Positions 3,001 to 9,000 of a stretch of 53,764 bases of DNA are shown here, piece by piece. The stretch lies in NCBI GenBank assembly GCA_018649885.1, contig JABIHA010000041.1:1-53764 (forward strand). The letters run 5' to 3'. The first letter of the stretch is position 1; each line of letters opens with the position of its first letter. This DNA comes from Bacteriovoracaceae bacterium. GTDB lineage: Bacteria > Bdellovibrionota > Bacteriovoracia > Bacteriovoracales > Bacteriovoracaceae. A program made the position numbers.

Positions 3001-6000
3001 ATTGAACGAGCTCCTGCCAGACTAGCGGCATAAGCAATTTCAACGGCTATTTTTTCATTCACTGAATATTCAAATTCAATACCCATTTCGCGAGAAATTT
3101 TTGCAGTGGTATCGGCAACTTCGGAGGAGGGAGTTCCGGGGTAGCAAGAAAAAAACTGGACTCCAGCTTCGAGACCGCCACGAACAATGGCGTTATTTCC
3201 CAGCAGGCTGGCCTTTGAGCCTTTTTTTTCTAAAAGTTTGATACTTTTGGTGGATGCACCCATCACTACTCCTTATACTTATACTGATCCCAGTTTGAAT
3301 TTCAAGTGGTGTATTCCTCATCGGAGTGTGCTTACACGCCTTCTTCGTCATCCACTCACTTGAAATCCAAACTGGAATCAGTATATTCTTTGTACAACCA
3401 CTTAAATTCCAAAATATAAAATTGATGGTTTGAGAAAAACCGTATTCAATTTTCATGAAAAAATACATGAGCCCCATCATGTAACCCCAGTAATAAATAG
3501 GTAAAAATTCTCCTGAACAAAAAGTAGCGACCATCTGCATTGCGACGAATCAAAAACAATGTCTGATTCCATTGACAAAAGGGCCATGCATGAGTAGTTT
3601 TCTACATACTGACCAGTTGGTATGTTTGAGTTTGGCTTTTAATTACAAGTAGTTATAGGGAGTTTTCTATTTTATCATCACGCTCAGAAACGACTATTTC
3701 TACCATCCTCGAAAGGGCCTCTGAGCTCTTTATTGCCAAAAACTATGCTGACGTAACCATGGATCAAATTGCTGGAAGTGCAAAGGTGACAAAGGGTGCC
3801 CTCTATCATCACTTCCCTAGTAAAGAGGCCTTGTATCTTCGTCTGATGCAAGACGATTTGAATTCAAAGAAACAATGTTTTGAAAAAGCTGTCACAAAAA
3901 GCGATAGCTGCCGCGAAAGACTCTACCAATTAACCTATGAGTTTTTCTGCTTGCCCAGACCCAAGCAAGAGCTAATTAGATTAATTAGAAGAGATAATAA
4001 TATTTTTAATGGTGATGTCAGATCCCTGTTAATTCAATCCTACCAAGAGTCTCTTCCCCAAATAATAGAACAAGTGATTAAAGACGGAATTGAAAACGGT
4101 GAACTAAAAGAAGGTGATCCCAGACTCCTGTCTTGGTTTTACGTCTCTTTAATTGAATGCACATTAAGACCATACTCAGATCAAATATTTGAAGATATCA
4201 ACTCAAAAATTGAGCACACCCTGGATTTCTTTTTTACTGGGGCCTGTACAAAAACGAAGAGGAATGAACATGAGCTTTGAAACTTTCCCCGAATGGCGAG
4301 GCAAAGAACTAGATGAGATTCTCTACGAGTGTAGAGAATTACTTGAAGACACTGAATACCCTACCATTAACAGATGGAGACAAAATGGGGGAAAGGTAGC
4401 TGGTCATTTTCAGGTCTACTTTCCCGAAGAAATTGCTCACGCAGCTGGTATGCTTCCAGTTAAAATGGGTGGTGCTCCCGTTGAGCCCAATAGTGCTGAC
4501 TCTCATTTTGGATCTTATCTTTGCTCAATTATAAAAACCTCTCTCGAAGTGGCCTTAAATGAAAAGGTGAAGCTAGATCTTTTTATCTCTCATCCTATAT
4601 GTGATGCTGCTAGAAATTTGGCGGCGATATTTGGGAGAAACTTCGACTATCCTTGCCAGATTCTATACCTTCCTCAAAATCCCAATTCATCACATAGTCT
4701 TCAATACCTCACTGATGAGTATGGAAGACTCAAGAGGCTTGTCGAGGAAATTACAGGAAATAAAATTACTGATGAAAAACTTCGGGCATCTATTGAAGTC
4801 TACAACCAAAATAGGCAATACCTGCGAGAAATTTACGACATTAAACGTGATACACCATGGCTTCTGACAGCTGATGAGGGTTACGCCCTACTTGCTATTG
4901 GTGGACTTATTCCAAGAGAAGAACACAACGAAGTATTAAAAACAGTAATCCCTTTAATTAAAAGTAGAGTCAGAAAAAAAGAAGATCGAATCAGACTTGT
5001 TTTTGAGGGAGGATTTTGTGAGCAGCCACCTCTAGATCTTATTCGGATGCTGGGTCAAACTTGCTACCTTGTGGATGATGATTTTTTAATTGGAATGCGC
5101 TGGATTTTATCAGATGTAAGTTTGGAGGGTGAACCTCTTAGAAATCTTGCACACTCCTATCTTGAAGACTCAAGCTATAGCCCTGTTCAACACGATAACA
5201 GAAAACCCAAAGAAGAAATGTTACTCAAAAGAATCGAAGCTTGTGATGCTGGAGCTGTCATTATTGCGGCGGCAAAAATGTGTGAGCCAGGCCTTGAAGA
5301 GCAGGTTGCCTATACCCACGAATTAGATAGAAAGGGAATCCCCTACTTTGTCACTGAGTTTGAAGAGAATATGAATTCCTTTGATCACTTAGAAATGCAA
5401 GTAGACACCTTTTTAGAAAATTTATTATTTTAAAAAAAATTGTGAGGAGTTAATATGAATTCAACACCTGAAAATAAAATTGTCGGAAGAGGAAACCGTG
5501 ATGGTGCCGCCCTTTTTCGAGATTGGTACAATGATCTATCCCAAACGGCCGAGACAGATGGAAGGGCCGCCTATGTTTTTGTTATGGGTAGTTTAAATGA
5601 AATTTTAAAATCCTTTGATATGCCGGTTGTTTTTCCTGAGATTAATTCTCTTCAAACAGCTGTAAGAAGAGTCGCCCATGACTACCTTGATGAAGCGGAA
5701 GATCACGGCTACTCTCCAGATATTTGTGGCTACGTCAAAGCCGACTACGCCGTTCAAAAAAGAGGTGGTGAACACCCCATGGGAAAAATCCCCAAGCCAT
5801 CAATCGCTGTTTTAACAAATGCCTGTAACACCTATATAAAATGGGCCGAAATTTGGGAGAGAATGTATGACATTCCAATTTTCACCATGGATATTCCAGG
5901 CACAAGGCAAGGCGGAAAACCTTCACTCGAAGGTAGTGTAGATTTTGAAAATGACCGCCGATACGTTGAGGCCCAAATTAGAGAGCTGATCACTCTTTGT

Positions 6001-9000
6001 GAAAAAGTCACAGGGAAAAAATTTGATATCGACAAACTCAGAGAGGTCTTAAAAAATACTAACTCTCTTCACTCTAGTTGGGAAAAAGTTATCACTCTCA
6101 ACCAAAATACCCCTGCTGTATTTAATGCCCTAACGGATGGAACAATCTTTTTGGGTGTGGCCAATGGCCTTAAAGGAACTCCAGAAGGTGCAAAATACTT
6201 CAAAGAGCTAGTAGAAGAAATGGAGTACAAAGTAAAAAATGGGATCGGCACATTAACTGAAGAGCAGTACCGCTTAGTTTTTGTAGGAGTTCCCTGTTAC
6301 CCCATTTTTAGACGCTTTAATGAGCTCTTTACCGATTGGGGTGGAACATTTATCAACTCAACATATCTTTGGTTCGCTTCAGGTGGCGCCAACAGAGGAT
6401 TCCAATACGATTTAGAAGATCCTATAAAAAGTCTTTCCATTGGACTTTTAATGAGTGTACGAGATGCTATGGACAGTATGTTTCATCAAGAAATTATGGT
6501 CGAGTCCATGGTCAAAGACTTCAAAATCGATGGCATTATCTATCACCCCATAAAAAGCTGCAGGACTGTTTCAACAGGTCTTGCTGATAGTCGCTACCAT
6601 CTTTCCAAAAAGATTGATGTACCCAGCCTATTTATTGAATCAGACATGATGGACCGCCGGGTTGTTACCGAGGCCCAAATGAAAAATAGAATTGATGCAT
6701 ATTTTGAAGGACTCGCCTCACGCAGACAAAGAATGGGCGCACATTAAAGCTAAGGAGTAAAAAATGGCCTACGCAGCTGGTGTTGATGTTGGATCAACCC
6801 AAACTAAAGCAGTCATTATTGATGAAAATAGAAAAATCGTTGGACGTGCCCTAACAGACACCGGCGCCAATGTGATTCAGGCAGCACAAAATTGTTTTGC
6901 CATTGCTCTCAAAGATTCAGGCCTCCCTGAAGAAGAAGTTGAGTATGTCATAGGCACTGGTTATGGCCGCTATAAAGTGACTTTTGGAAATGCCCAGATC
7001 ACCGAGATTAGCTGTCATGGTCGAGGTGCTGTTCATATGTTTCCAAAGACTAAAACAGTTGTGGACATGGGTGGCCAGGACACCAAGGCCATCAGTGTGG
7101 GACCAGACGGTGATATTATTGATTTCTGTATGAACGATAAATGCGCAGCCGGCACGGGACGTTTTCTAGGAGCTGCCTCCATGGCCTTAGATATTCCTCT
7201 AGATGATCTTGGACCGACAGCACTAAAGTACAACCGGCCAGTGAAAATATCCACCACCTGCACAGTTTTTGCAGAATCAGAAGTACTCTCCTGGCTCGGT
7301 AAAGGAAAAAAAATTGAAGACATCCTATGGGGAGTCCACCAATCGATTGCCTCACGATCAGCTGGTTTAATGAGAAGAGTTGGAGTTGAGGACGAAGTTA
7401 CTTTCACAGGTGGTGTCACAAAAAATGTCGCCATGGTTAAAGCACTGGAAGAAAGACTTGGTAAACAGCTCAATGTAAGTGATGACTCCCACTACATGGG
7501 TGCACTTGGGGCCTCACTTTTTGCCCTCGATCATATTATCTCCAGCAGAACCCCTCAACTTGAAAAGGAGAATGCCTAATGTCTACTATCACGGCCGGAA
7601 TTGATGTTGGCTCCACCTACACAAAAACAATTTTATTAGATGAGAATCAAAAAGTACTCGCCAAAGATCTTAGGCATACTGGTTTTAAGCTCAAACAAGT
7701 AGCAAGAGAATCTTTCGATGCCTGTATTGCCAGCATTGGAAAAAAAGAAAGCGATATTGATTATATTGTGGCCACTGGAACTGGAAGACACCTAGTTGAT
7801 TTCAAAGACTTGGCCGTTACTGATATTACGGCCACTGCCAGAGGAACGACTCACCTTTTCCCTAAAACCCTTACAGTCCTTGATATTGGTGGCCAAACCA
7901 TGAAGTCATCAAGGCTAGACGAAAATAAGAAAGTTCTCTCTTTTAGACTAAATGATAAGTGTGCAGCCGGCACTGGAGCCTTCTTAGAAAAGACAGCAAA
8001 GTATATGGGTTTCCAAACAGAGGAAATCAGTCCCCTCTTATCAACATCAAAAGAGCCGGTTCCCATCTCTGGGGTCTGCGCAGTTTTTGCTGAATCAGAA
8101 GTCATCAACCACCTCTCCCTTGGTGCACCTCCTTCAGATATTATGCAAGGAGCGATCGAGTCCCTTGTAAGCCGAGCACTTCAACTTATAAAACGAGTGA
8201 AAGGTGAGCCGGAGTTTACTCTGGTTGGTGGCATCATGAGATTTACCACCATGGCAGATTCTATTCACAAGCAACTTGAAAAAGATGTCAATGTTCCACC
8301 TGAGGATATGGTCCAATTTATGGCCTGCCTAGGAGCCGCCATATTGGCCGGGATTCGACTTGAAAAAGTAGGAAGAACAACTGAAGCAGTGGCACAAGCT
8401 TAAGATGGCCGTGGATGAAAAAGAAATTAAAGGCTGCCCCAAACTTCTTAGTGAAGGCTGGAAAAAGAGACACCTAGTCGACCCTGACAGGGCAGCTGAA
8501 TCCATAGAGCTCTATGAAAGCATGGGACTCGAGGCCATCGCCAAAAAACTAGACCCTAAAGACCTCGGTGATAGCTGCGAAGGGTGCAAAAGTGCTCTTT
8601 GCACCAACTATCTAATGGTTTACACCAAAGTCAAAAAATAGTGTTCTTTTTACACACTACCCTCAGTAAACAATTCCAGGTTCATTAAGCTTTCATTAAC
8701 AGGCATTGAGCCAGATCCCACTCCCCGTTAAACTCTCATAGCACTAACGGAGAATCCATATGACACTATTTAAAGCATTTAGCACTCTAGTACTTTGCCT
8801 TTCTTGGACATCCATAGCACTCAGTGCTTACGACACTGAAGTGAAACGAATAGACAGCTCACAAGTAAGAGTTGAAAACCTTCAGCTGCAACACTCAGGA
8901 AAAGCCTTTGATCGATTCTATCGTATTATCGATAATGATAAAGGTGTTACTTGTTATATTATTAGCTCTGGCTCAATACAGTCATCAAGTAGTACTAGTA

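What a model noticed while it worked through the whole genome (the two positions that open the first line are those of the whole stretch)
4270..8403. Anaerobic benzoyl-CoA pathway with a divergent four-subunit class I reductase in a Bacteriovoracaceae genome that also r [...]
This member of a family known as obligate predators encodes the anaerobic aromatic-ring pathway: a four-gene ATP-dependent benzoyl-CoA-reductase-like enzyme in the Thauera order C-B-A-D (g01706-g01709, C40:4270-8403, beside a TetR regulator and indolepyruvate:ferredoxin oxidoreductase g01703/4) and, on C3:29355-32300, dienoyl-CoA hydratase (g00074), ring-opening 6-oxocyclohex-1-ene-1-carbonyl-CoA hydrolase BamA/Oah (g00075) and 6-hydroxycyclohex-1-ene-1-carbonyl-CoA dehydrogenase Had (g00076), next to an acyl-CoA ligase. 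The reductase is a deep variant: all four subunits hit the Thauera-type models best but far under the equivalog cut-offs. With NarGHI (C66:2-4867, C141:1-1536), a qNor-like [...]
Evidence so far: g00075 524.8 bits vs cut 464 for TIGR03200 and g00076 440 vs 339 for TIGR03201, both equivalogs; g00074 best hit TIGR03189 dienoyl-CoA hydratase 217 bits (cut 292) and 38% to Thauera Dch. g01706/07/08/09: best specific NCBIfam hits benz_CoA_red C 252 (cut 421), B 216 (cut 487), A 224, D 132 bits, each above the 2-hydroxyacyl-CoA dehydratase and bzd-type models; two different BcrAD-type ATPase subunits in one operon is the reductase, not the dehydratase, layout (inference from family knowledge). TIGR03200 over its cut-off in 8 of 401 Bdellovibrionota genomes sampled, 1 of 100 other Bacteriovoracaceae; HGD-D in 6 of 236, NarG_dom_V 13 of 236, nos_propeller 11 of 236, Gly_radical 4 of 236 famil [...]
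(Added by a program. Inside this text positions count along the whole contig: contig position 1 is position 1 of the stretch shown here. "Call 12" and the like, gene names such as g00115 and contig names such as C1 are that model's own, and its searches are not shown. The text may have been shortened before it was handed on; [...] marks where a part breaks off. The agent that wrote the report below was given it as the finding of a first reader that could run no searches.)

Follow-up and report, generated by a model that had tools for sequence, protein, structure and literature searches.

The report
Known-type benzoyl-CoA reductase in a Bacteriovoracaceae genome
A genome from a family known as bacterial predators carries an intact ATP-driven enzyme for breaking aromatic rings without oxygen, but the enzyme is an already characterised type that is common in uncultured bacteria, so only the host is unusual.

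Summary
They are not a "deep variant". All four subunits match the solved 3-methylbenzoyl-CoA reductase MbdN/O/Q/P (PDB 9g87, 9gai) at E 1e-160, 9e-160, 2e-125 and 1e-81. That makes it the known MBR type of class I benzoyl-CoA reductase, for which NCBIfam has no model. The catalytic subunit is 68-78% identical to hundreds of proteins from uncultured bacteria of more than ten phyla. This scan has described the same clade in other genomes.

The operon is six tightly packed genes: a TetR regulator (probable ATT start at 3669), N, O, Q, P and a conserved 78-residue CxxC protein (8405-8641). The contig looks native in composition and flanking genes. GyrB places the genome in Bacteriovoracales.

Among 401 Bdellovibrionota genomes sampled, only this one and G363 carry the orthologue. 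In G363 it sits in one cluster with had-oah-dch and a CoA ligase. Both genomes also have NarG. The enzyme is a new member of a known kind. The interest is the host: a nitrate-respiring Bacteriovoracaceae with anaerobic aromatic catabolism.

The parts
755..1390 (-). IorB-like subunit of indolepyruvate (arylpyruvate):ferredoxin oxidoreductase
   Evidence: Pfam POR 102 bits. Best NCBIfam hits are IOR beta models: 171.7 bits (cut-off 238) and TIGR03334 156.6 (cut-off 205.8), both below cut-off.
1377..3266 (-). IorA, alpha subunit of indolepyruvate:ferredoxin oxidoreductase, with a C-terminal 4Fe-4S domain
   Evidence: TIGR03336 668.8 bits, above the 650.9 cut-off. Pfam TPP_enzyme_C, POR_N and Fer4. 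A homologue lies near the reductase in only 3 of 80 related loci.
3267..3668 (.). About 400-bp divergent intergenic region between iorA and the TetR-reductase operon
   Evidence: Coordinates. The promoter scan gives only consensus-level matches. No convincing operator palindrome was found.
3669..4280 (+). TetR-family regulator, 203 aa, probable ATT start; overlaps the N-subunit start by 11 nt
   Evidence: Pfam TetR_N matches from profile position 19 at the ATG-3759 start, so the N-terminus is missing there. There is no ATG/GTG/TTG in frame between the stop at 3627-3629 and 3759, and AGGGAG at 3657-3662 precedes ATT 3669. The L012 homologue aligns from 3669. A homologue at about 49% identity is found in 25 of 80 related loci, always directly upstream of N on the same strand (25 of 25). 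It is not an MbdR orthologue: only the HTH matches, 31 bits.
4270..5433 (+). MbdN-like (gamma, BcrC-like) subunit of the reductase
   Evidence: PDB 9g87_B MbdN 538.7 bits, E 1.1e-160, aligned 4-387 without gaps. Pfam HGD-D 221.2 bits. Cys85, 111, 250 and 338 are invariant in 75 of 75 rows; Cys21 in 71 of 75 and Cys129 in 68 of 75.
5455..6747 (+). MbdO-like (beta, BcrB-like) catalytic subunit
   Evidence: PDB 9g87_A MbdO 535.4 bits, E 9.1e-160. Cys91, Cys124 and Cys369 align with the BzdO cluster ligands Cys95, Cys128 and Cys380. These three, Glu62 and Tyr127 are invariant in 82 of 82 rows (PMC11971306 section 8).
6764..7579 (+). MbdQ-like (alpha, BcrA-like) ATPase subunit
   Evidence: PDB 9gai_D MbdQ 420.6 bits, E 2.4e-125. 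BcrAD_BadFG 207.6 bits. Cys127 and Cys166 are invariant in 75 of 75 rows.
7579..8403 (+). MbdP-like (delta, BcrD-like) ATPase subunit
   Evidence: PDB 9gai_C MbdP 277.1 bits, E 1.3e-81, against MbdQ 190.5 bits. Cys128 and Cys167 are invariant in 72 of 72 rows.
8405..8641 (+). Conserved 78-aa CxxC protein of unknown function, one base after the P-subunit stop
   Evidence: A homologue lies in the same position in 60 of 80 related loci. G18, W19, R22, Y37, G41, C58, C61 and T74 are invariant in a 40-row alignment. No Pfam, NCBIfam or PDB match. The AlphaFold model has pLDDT 79 and no PDB fold match at E<=0.001. Atlas neighbours are all hypothetical proteins. Not found in the G363 cluster.

Best explanation
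Positions 3669-8641 are a six-gene operon: TetR, N, O, Q, P and a small CxxC protein. It encodes an MBR-type (MbdNOQP-like) class I, ATP-dependent aryl-CoA (benzoyl-CoA) reductase. By analogy with the characterised enzymes, the Q/P ATPase dimer holds a bridging [4Fe-4S] cluster, takes an electron from reduced ferredoxin and uses ATP hydrolysis to lower its potential. The electron then passes through the N-subunit cluster to the [4Fe-4S] cluster of O, where benzoyl-CoA or a substituted analogue is reduced to a cyclohexa-1,5-dienoyl-CoA. Dch, Had and Oah on contig C3 then hydrate, oxidise and open the ring, and the neighbouring beta-oxidation genes finish the job. The TetR protein probably represses the operon until an aryl-CoA binds. 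The genes are native to a nitrate-respiring Bacteriovoracales genome and were most likely gained by horizontal transfer from the large pool of uncultured bacteria that carry the same module. Shown: gene content, family assignment, ligand conservation, genomic linkage and distribution. Inferred: activity, substrate, electron donor and regulation.
For: (1) All four subunits match the solved MbdN/O/Q/P far better than HadBC/HadI or BzdNO: 538.7, 535.4, 420.6 and 277.1 bits, against at most 128 bits for the catalytic subunits and at most 214 bits for the ATPases.
(2) Representatives that pass the Thauera-type equivalog (814.6 and 630.1 bits on TIGR02260) are only 32-34% identical to O. The representative of the MBR cluster scores 214.7 bits on that model, like the window's 215.6.
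(3) Cluster ligands are invariant across 72-82 homologues and align with the BzdO ligands (PMC11971306 sections 8-9).
(4) Linkage to ring-opening genes: in G363, the other family genome with the orthologue, N-O-Q-P, an acyl-CoA dehydrogenase, had, oah (76% identical), dch, the ligase (55%) and an SDR form one cluster. Among 33 related loci with at least 7 kb on both sides, 19 carry Oah or Had. Neighbours in other phyla include a Had equivalog (447 bits), a BadH-like SDR and 4-hydroxybenzoyl-CoA-reductase-like genes.
(5) Native contig: tetranucleotide correlation of 1-8500 with the genome is 0.958, the 12th percentile of 8-kb windows. The next gene, 9041-10936, has 48%-identical paralogues on C102 and C111 and 37-39% homologues in same-family genomes; 16 of 100 such genomes match at E<=1e-10. 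GC is 0.40-0.43 here against 0.62-0.63 in the closest foreign loci L002 and L027.
(6) Taxonomy: every named GyrB hit among the 120 listed is a Bacteriovoracales-type taxon (Bacteriovoracaceae, Halobacteriovorax, Halobacteriovoraceae, Bacteriovorax) or Oligoflexia/Bdellovibrio; the best reach 72-73%.
(7) Anaerobic respiration: NarG is over its cut-off in G000 and G363, and in 8 of 101 family genomes.
Against: No enzyme activity, expression data or culture exists for this organism. The reductase and the dch-had-oah genes lie on different contigs in this genome. No ferredoxin gene is in the operon; only three small 2x[4Fe-4S]-motif ORFs lie elsewhere, on C8, C21 and C57. No benzoate-CoA ligase equivalog (best 193.3 bits, cut-off 375.25) and no PaaK were found, so the entry substrate is unknown. 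Dch is below its equivalog cut-off (216.8 against 292.5). The bin is 92.4% complete with 3.9% contamination, and rpoB was not found in it. The position that is His131 in BzdO is Tyr127 here and Phe in MbdO, so active-site details differ between types. In the single-subunit tree G000 and G363 were not sisters. They joined, together with an unrelated MAG, only in a quick concatenated tree.
Confidence: 0.78

Rival explanations
1. The enzyme is an MBR-type reductase, but its physiological substrate is not benzoyl-CoA. It could act on a substituted or different aryl-CoA, such as methyl-, halo- or hydroxy-benzoyl-CoA, or an amino-acid-derived aryl-CoA.
For: The closest characterised enzyme is named for 3-methylbenzoyl-CoA. 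[quoted passage not shown] Dch is below its equivalog cut-off. No benzoate-CoA ligase equivalog was found. IOR sits next door.
Against: Oah and Had pass the equivalog cut-offs for the unsubstituted pathway. The same clade sits beside Had and Oah in many phyla. A promiscuous enzyme would accept benzoyl-CoA as well.
Confidence: 0.3
2. The contig, or its first 8.6 kb, is a binning or assembly contaminant from one of the phyla where this operon is common. In that case the Bacteriovoracaceae host is an artefact.
For: The bin has 3.9% contamination and 151 contigs. The operon sits 4 kb from a contig end next to an HNH endonuclease fragment. Its GC is slightly above the genome mean, 0.40-0.43 against 0.38. 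Close homologues are in other phyla.
Against: Tetranucleotide composition is within the genome's range. The operon is contiguous with 45 kb of sequence whose composition correlates 0.993 with the genome. The adjacent gene belongs to a lineage-restricted family with paralogues elsewhere in the bin. An independent same-family genome (G363, 94% complete, GyrB 66% identical) has the orthologous operon fused to the same lower-pathway genes found on C3.
Confidence: 0.07
3. It is a 2-hydroxyacyl-CoA dehydratase or another non-dearomatising member of the BCR/HAD radical enzyme family.
For: Pfam names only HGD-D and the shared ATPase family. Many database entries call the homologues '2-hydroxyacyl-CoA dehydratase'. 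IOR and amino-acid-type genes occur in the genome.
Against: There are two different ATPase subunits, each closest to a different MBR subunit. HadB and HadC score 128 and 123 bits against 535 and 539 for MbdO and MbdN. The clade is linked to dch/had/oah. The genome has a separate HadB-like gene plus a single activase on C3.
Confidence: 0.04

Closest known systems
3-Methylbenzoyl-CoA reductase MbdONQP (MBR type of class I BCR; PDB 9g87, 9gai, 9gal, 9gba; Thauera chlorobenzoica 3CB-1 per PMC11971306)
   Same: Four subunits, each matching its counterpart one to one at E 1e-81 to 1e-160 over nearly full length. Lengths agree: 387/388, 430/445, 271/269 and 274/273 residues. The Cys ligands are the same. 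[quoted passage not shown]
   Different: Identity is roughly 55-65%. This is my estimate from bit scores and the printed alignments, not a computed value. The window's protein is closer (68-78%) to a large uncultured clade. The TetR is not an MbdR orthologue. There is no ferredoxin gene (MbdM) in the operon. An extra conserved CxxC gene follows P. The lower-pathway genes are on another contig. The host is Bdellovibrionota, not Betaproteobacteria.
TetR-N-O-Q-P-small-ORF operons of uncultured Acidobacteriota, Planctomycetota, Acidimicrobiia, Gemmatimonadota, Chloroflexota, KSB1, Zixibacteria and others (L002-L081)
   Same: Same gene order and content. O is 68-77% identical. N was found in 76, Q in 75, P in 74, the small ORF in 60 and TetR in 25 of 80 loci. 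Neighbours are frequently Dch/Had/Oah.
   Different: All are MAGs with no biochemistry. Host phyla differ. In the window IorAB is the divergent neighbour, which is rare elsewhere (3 of 80 loci).
Benzoyl-CoA reductase BcrCBAD of Thauera aromatica (BCR type; NCBIfam TIGR02263, 02260, 02259, 02261)
   Same: Same class, architecture and gene order (C-B-A-D corresponds to N-O-Q-P). It is a permanent heterotetramer, like the MBR type, according to PMC11971306 (introduction read).
   Different: All four equivalog cut-offs are missed by a wide margin. Representatives that pass TIGR02260 are 32-34% identical to O.
BzdNOPQ of Aromatoleum sp. CIB (BZD type; PDB 8s02)
   Same: Same enzyme family. The three Cys ligands and the Glu of the catalytic subunit align.
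   Different: Only 88 and 99.5 bits to BzdN and BzdO. His131 of BzdO corresponds to Tyr127 here. [quoted passage not shown]

Membership tests
Class I benzoyl-CoA reductase, MBR (MbdNOQP) type | Two HGD-D-family subunits (N and O) forming the catalytic module | tested here: met
   Pfam PF06050 at 221.2 and 198.9 bits. Best PDB hits are MbdN and MbdO.
Class I benzoyl-CoA reductase, MBR (MbdNOQP) type | Two different BcrAD/BadFG-type ATPase subunits encoded with them | tested here: met
   PF01869 at 207.6 and 171.6 bits. P0003 is closest to MbdQ (420.6 bits against 163.2 for MbdP). P0004 is closest to MbdP (277.1 against 190.5 for MbdQ).
Class I benzoyl-CoA reductase, MBR (MbdNOQP) type | Each subunit closer to the MBR enzyme than to the BCR-type, BZD-type or HAD enzymes | tested here: met
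   PDB phmmer results. Identity to TIGR02260-passing representatives is 32-34%. No tree with named references could be built.
Class I benzoyl-CoA reductase, MBR (MbdNOQP) type | Conserved Fe-S ligands: three Cys plus Glu in O, and two Cys in each ATPase | tested here: met
   O: C91, C124, C369 and E62 in 82 of 82 rows. Q: C127 and C166 in 75 of 75. P: C128 and C167 in 72 of 72. The role of the ATPase cysteines is recalled from the HgdC/BCR literature.
Class I benzoyl-CoA reductase, MBR (MbdNOQP) type | Works with dienoyl-CoA hydratase, hydroxyenoyl-CoA dehydrogenase and a ring-opening hydrolase | tested here: met
   All three are present in the genome on C3. They are fused to the reductase operon in G363. 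Oah or Had is within 8 kb in 19 of 33 fully flanked related loci.
Class I benzoyl-CoA reductase, MBR (MbdNOQP) type | Dedicated ferredoxin gene in the cluster (MbdM, Fdx or BzdM in the model clusters) | tested here: not met
   No ferredoxin-like ORF lies between 3100 and 9100. Three small 2x[4Fe-4S]-motif ORFs are on other contigs. The 78-aa CxxC protein has no ferredoxin signature.
Class I benzoyl-CoA reductase, MBR (MbdNOQP) type | ATP-dependent two-electron reduction of (methyl)benzoyl-CoA to the dienoyl-CoA | not testable with these tools
   This needs an anaerobic enzyme assay.
Class I benzoyl-CoA reductase, BCR (Thauera BcrCBAD) type | Scores above the NCBIfam equivalog cut-offs TIGR02263, 02260, 02259 and 02261 | tested here: not met
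   252 of 421, 215.6 of 487, 223.7 of 578 and 132.2 of 313 bits.
Class I benzoyl-CoA reductase, BZD type | Scores above the cut-offs of TIGR03190, 03191 and 03192 | tested here: not met
   89.9 of 454, 109.8 of 449 and 190.2 of 380 bits.
2-Hydroxyacyl-CoA dehydratase (HadBC/HgdAB plus activator) | Heterodimeric dehydratase served by one homodimeric activator; closest relatives are HadB and HadC | tested here: not met
   Two distinct ATPases are present. HadB and HadC score 128.2 and 123 bits against 535 and 539 for MbdO and MbdN.
MbdR (TetR-type regulator of the mbd cluster) | Full-length similarity to MbdR (PDB 4uds) | tested here: not met
   31 bits, residues 9-62 only, which is the HTH.

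The most novel reading that the evidence does not exclude
This nitrate-respiring member of a predatory family may use the reductase to mineralise aromatic amino acids without oxygen, for example those released from prey protein. 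The C3 genes would supply the route: a HisC-like aminotransferase, a PanE-like 2-oxoacid reductase, a lone HadB-like radical dehydratase with its activase, and the conserved ACSL-type ligase. Together with IorAB beside the reductase, they would turn phenylalanine and tyrosine into cinnamoyl- and coumaroyl-type CoA esters. Beta-oxidation would yield benzoyl-CoA and 4-hydroxybenzoyl-CoA, the HcrCAB-like enzyme would dehydroxylate the latter, and the MBR-type reductase would dearomatise the product. That would imply a facultative or non-obligate predatory lifestyle, which fits the 5.4-Mb genome, the largest among the family genomes listed. A side reading is that the conserved 78-aa CxxC protein is an undescribed accessory factor or electron-transfer partner of this reductase clade.
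Probability: 0.25. Interest if true: 0.65.

Novelty: new member of a known kind. Interest (0 to 1): 0.4.

Why it matters
Bdellovibrio-like organisms are generally treated as aerobic obligate predators with streamlined catabolism. An intact anaerobic aromatic-ring pathway plus nitrate reductase in two Bacteriovoracaceae genomes suggests that some members live, or feed on prey-derived aromatics, under anoxic conditions. I found no paper in the held library that links Bdellovibrionota to benzoyl-CoA reductase (searches; passages checked). The result also corrects an annotation trap. MBR-type reductases fail every NCBIfam equivalog and are widely labelled '2-hydroxyacyl-CoA dehydratase', so low scores should not be read as deep divergence. 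The enzyme itself is not new.

Tried and rejected
- AU test of G000+G363 monophyly on the 88-row O-subunit tree: it did not finish after 859 s over three runs and was abandoned. It was replaced by a quick 30-row concatenated N+O+Q+P tree, for which no AU test was run.
- Named reference sequences for a tree: the plasmid collection gave only hits at 23-28% identity, and the control genomes of the genome search hold no BCR.
- MbdR orthology of the TetR: rejected.
- Small CxxC protein: Pfam, NCBIfam, PDB sequence search, AlphaFold plus Foldseek against PDB, and the ESM Atlas all gave nothing informative. No complex prediction was run.
- Operator and promoter search in 3260-3760: only a 10-nt AT-rich palindrome and consensus-level promoter matches.
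- Paper for PDB 9g87/9gai: none in the library.
- Tiedt et al. 2018 (PMC6028946): not held. MBR substrate range is therefore known to me only from that title and from recall.
- rpoB as a taxonomic marker: not found in the bin; gyrB was used instead.
- First paper search with 'MbdO': swamped by unrelated acronyms.
- One reference with wrong frame and coordinates was rejected and dropped.

Full report
**Observation**

The window is contig C40 of a 5.45-Mb, 151-contig bin, 92.4% complete with 3.9% contamination. Four co-oriented ORFs lie at 4270-5433, 5455-6747, 6764-7579 and 7579-8403.

The values are 252, 215.6, 223.7 and 132.2 bits for benz_CoA_red C, B, A and D. All are far below the equivalog cut-offs but above the HadB/C and bzd-type models. 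Pfam sees two HGD-D and two BcrAD_BadFG proteins.

**What the enzyme is**

The Protein Data Bank search settles the type.

| Window protein | Best PDB match | Bits | E-value |
|---|---|---|---|
| N (4270-5433) | 3-methylbenzoyl-CoA reductase MbdN | 538.7 | 1.1e-160 |
| O (5455-6747) | MbdO | 535.4 | 9.1e-160 |
| Q (6764-7579) | MbdQ | 420.6 | 2.4e-125 |
| P (7579-8403) | MbdP | 277.1 | 1.3e-81 |

The next-best structures for N and O are far behind: HadC/HadB at 123 and 128 bits, BzdN/BzdO at 88 and 99.5 bits.

Fuchs et al. 2025 (PMC11971306; introduction and sections 6, 8 and 9 read) divide class I reductases into BCR, MBR and BZD types. They report that BzdNO is only about 24-26% identical to the other two types. 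The window's enzyme is therefore the MBR type.

The 50%-identity representative library agrees.
- The cluster representative P0124 is 59% identical to O, matches MbdO at 479.6 bits, and scores 214.7 bits on TIGR02260. That is the same score as the window's protein.
- Representatives that pass that Thauera-type model (814.6 and 630.1 bits) are only 32-34% identical to O.

The low equivalog scores therefore reflect a missing NCBIfam model, not a deep variant. I estimate identity to MbdN/O at roughly 55-65% from bit scores and the printed alignments. I could not compute it exactly.

**Catalytic residues**

In the alignment to BzdO, Cys91, Cys124 and Cys369 take the places of the cluster ligands Cys95, Cys128 and Cys380, as named in PMC11971306 section 8. 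Across homologues from related loci:
- O: the three cysteines, Glu62 and Tyr127 are invariant in 82 of 82 rows.
- N: four invariant cysteines, plus two present in 68-71 of 75 rows.
- Q and P: two invariant cysteines each (75 of 75 and 72 of 72). From recall of the family, these are the ligands of the bridging cluster.
- The BzdO His131 position is Tyr here and Phe in MbdO.

**Operon anatomy**

The TetR gene listed from ATG 3759 lacks the first 18 profile positions. There is no ATG, GTG or TTG in frame upstream. However, AGGGAG at 3657-3662 precedes an in-frame ATT at 3669, and the TetR of locus L012 aligns from exactly 3669. The gene is therefore most likely 3669-4280 with an ATT start. It overlaps the N start by 11 nt.

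Spacers between the following genes are 21, 16, -1 and 1 nt.

One base after the P stop lies a 78-codon ORF (8405-8641). It is conserved in the same position in 60 of 80 related loci. G18, W19, R22, Y37, G41, C58, C61 and T74 are invariant in a 40-row alignment. It has no match in any of these:
- Pfam, NCBIfam or PDB by sequence.
- PDB by fold: the model has pLDDT 79 and Foldseek found nothing at E<=0.001.
- The ESM Atlas, where the neighbours are all hypothetical proteins.

IorA and IorB are transcribed divergently from a roughly 400-bp intergenic region. IorA passes its equivalog cut-off at 668.8 bits against 650.9.

**How common the module is**

- The word-indexed search found 4261 relatives of O at E<=1e-20. 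The best 120 are 73-78% identical, and the named ones come from Acidobacteriota, Planctomycetota, Zixibacteria, Arenicellales and Acidiferrobacteraceae MAGs.
- The species-representative genome scan found at least 580 relatives. The best 80 loci (68-77% identity) come from more than ten phyla, and all are MAGs.
- In those 80 loci, N, Q and P accompany O in 76, 75 and 74.
- TetR is present in 25 loci, and in all 25 it lies directly upstream on the same strand.
- Of the 33 loci with at least 7 kb on both sides, 19 carry Oah or Had, 17 carry Dch and 6 carry an HcrA-like gene.
- Annotated neighbours include a Had equivalog, a BadH-like SDR, HcrA/B-like proteins, a PaaX-like regulator and thiolases.

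This neighbourhood supports a dearomatising role for the whole clade. The scan's own earlier notes describe the same clade in Acidimicrobiia, Planctomycetota and Gemmatimonadota, with the same closest known enzyme. I reached the MBR assignment before that look-up.

**Is it really in this organism?**

- Tetranucleotide correlation with the genome is 0.958 for 1-8500, the 12th percentile of 604 8-kb windows. It is 0.993 for the rest of the contig.
- The next gene (9041-10936, no Pfam family) has 48%-identical paralogues on C102 and C111 and 37-39% homologues in same-family genomes. Of the 100 other same-family genomes, 16 match it at E<=1e-10.
- The bin's GyrB finds Bacteriovoracaceae and Halobacteriovorax proteins as its best named hits, at 70-73%. 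This supports the family assignment. The genome tools themselves give only coded names.
- With O as query, 0 of 40 relatives and 1 of 400 other Bdellovibrionota genomes hold an orthologue. Six further genomes hold only 33-35% paralogues.
- The one positive, G363 (same family, GyrB 66% identical), carries N-O-Q-P, an acyl-CoA dehydrogenase, had, oah, dch, the same unusual 570-580-aa ligase (55% identical) and an SDR in one cluster.

This independent genome links the reductase to the very genes that lie on C3 in G000. It also argues against contamination.

**Origin**

- In the quick O-subunit tree, G000 and G363 are not sisters and the backbone is weak.
- In a quick concatenated N+O+Q+P tree (30 rows, 1362 columns, LG+G4), the two join locus L012 (genome G439) in a clade with SH-aLRT 98. 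L027 was excluded from that tree because it lacks all four subunits.
- GyrB of G439 is only 54% identical to that of G000.

Horizontal transfer into, or among, these lineages is likely. The number of events is open.

**Rest of the pathway in G000**

C3 holds Had (440.1 bits against a 338.65 cut-off), Oah (524.8 against 464.45), Dch (216.8 against 292.5), the ligase, a FadB-like protein, a thiolase and an SDR.

It also holds an HcrC/A/B-like molybdenum hydroxylase. HcrA scores 781.9 bits against a 994.55 cut-off and HcrB 157.5 against 404.55. The B subunit has four cysteines at 126, 142, 150 and 164. From recall, this resembles the extra [4Fe-4S] loop of 4-hydroxybenzoyl-CoA reductase.

Divergently from had lie a lone HadB-like gene, an activase, a PanE-like reductase and a HisC-like aminotransferase. 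The first three recur together in G363.

NarG is over its cut-off in G000, G363 and G439, and in 8 of 101 family genomes. No benzoate-CoA ligase equivalog or PaaK was found, so the entry substrate is unknown.

**Verdict**

The enzyme is a new member of a known, structurally solved type that is very common in uncultured bacteria. What remains interesting is the host: 2 of 401 sampled Bdellovibrionota genomes, both with nitrate reductase, in a family regarded as predators. No paper in the held library links the phylum to benzoyl-CoA reductase. The amino-acid feeder route and the role of the CxxC protein are hypotheses, not findings.

Noticed in passing
window 3657-3669: The TetR gene appears to start at an ATT codon (3669), seven bases after an AGGGAG Shine-Dalgarno-like motif. 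No canonical start codon is in frame upstream of 3759, and homology to the L012 TetR begins at 3669.
   Followed up: partly
window 43037-52158: A cluster of nine ORFs with 48 CxxCH haem-binding motifs in total (up to 11 in the 706-aa ORF at 48153-50273). Pfam hits are cytochrome c7/c3 and MtrC/MtrF-like. This could be an extracellular or periplasmic electron-transfer system in a Bacteriovoracales genome.
   Followed up: partly
G000:C3:19778-23639 (L102:8778-9743 and L001:740-3639): HcrB/A/C-like molybdenum hydroxylase next to the ring-opening genes. The best NCBIfam hits of A and B are 4-hydroxybenzoyl-CoA reductase alpha and beta, both below cut-off. The B subunit has a four-Cys stretch (126, 142, 150, 164) reminiscent of the enzyme's extra Fe-S loop; that feature is recalled, not tested.
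   Followed up: partly
G000:C3:32534-36624 (L001:12534-16624) and G363:C4 (L094:8314-11229): A lone HadB-like HGD-D protein, one activase, a PanE-like 2-oxoacid reductase and (in G000) a HisC-like aminotransferase lie divergently from had. The first three are conserved together in G363 at 60%, 49% and 37% identity. This could be a feeder route from aromatic amino acids.
   Followed up: partly
L085-L090 (G210, G315, G127, G124, G362, G324): Six other Bdellovibrionota genomes from four families carry a distinct paralogue 33-35% identical to O. It forms a separate, fully supported, long-branched clade. Two copies show one in-frame TAA. Its function was not examined.
   Followed up: no
window 9041-10936; G000:C102:43663-45429; G000:C111:144-1859: A 631-aa protein without any Pfam family has two 48%-identical paralogues in the bin. 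It is homologous at 37-39% to segments of very long open frames (up to about 9,900 aa) in same-family genomes.
   Followed up: partly
G000 whole genome: No rpoB match at all, although the bin is rated 92% complete. At 5.45 Mb the bin is larger than every family genome listed (2.2-4.9 Mb). The 8-kb windows at C95:1 and C3:1 have atypical tetranucleotide composition (r 0.33 and 0.71).
   Followed up: no
window 1-540, 30986-31297, 34751-35080: An HNH endonuclease fragment sits at the contig end, 4 kb from the operon. The window also encodes an RRM_1 RNA-binding protein and a SWIB/MDM2-domain protein.
   Followed up: no
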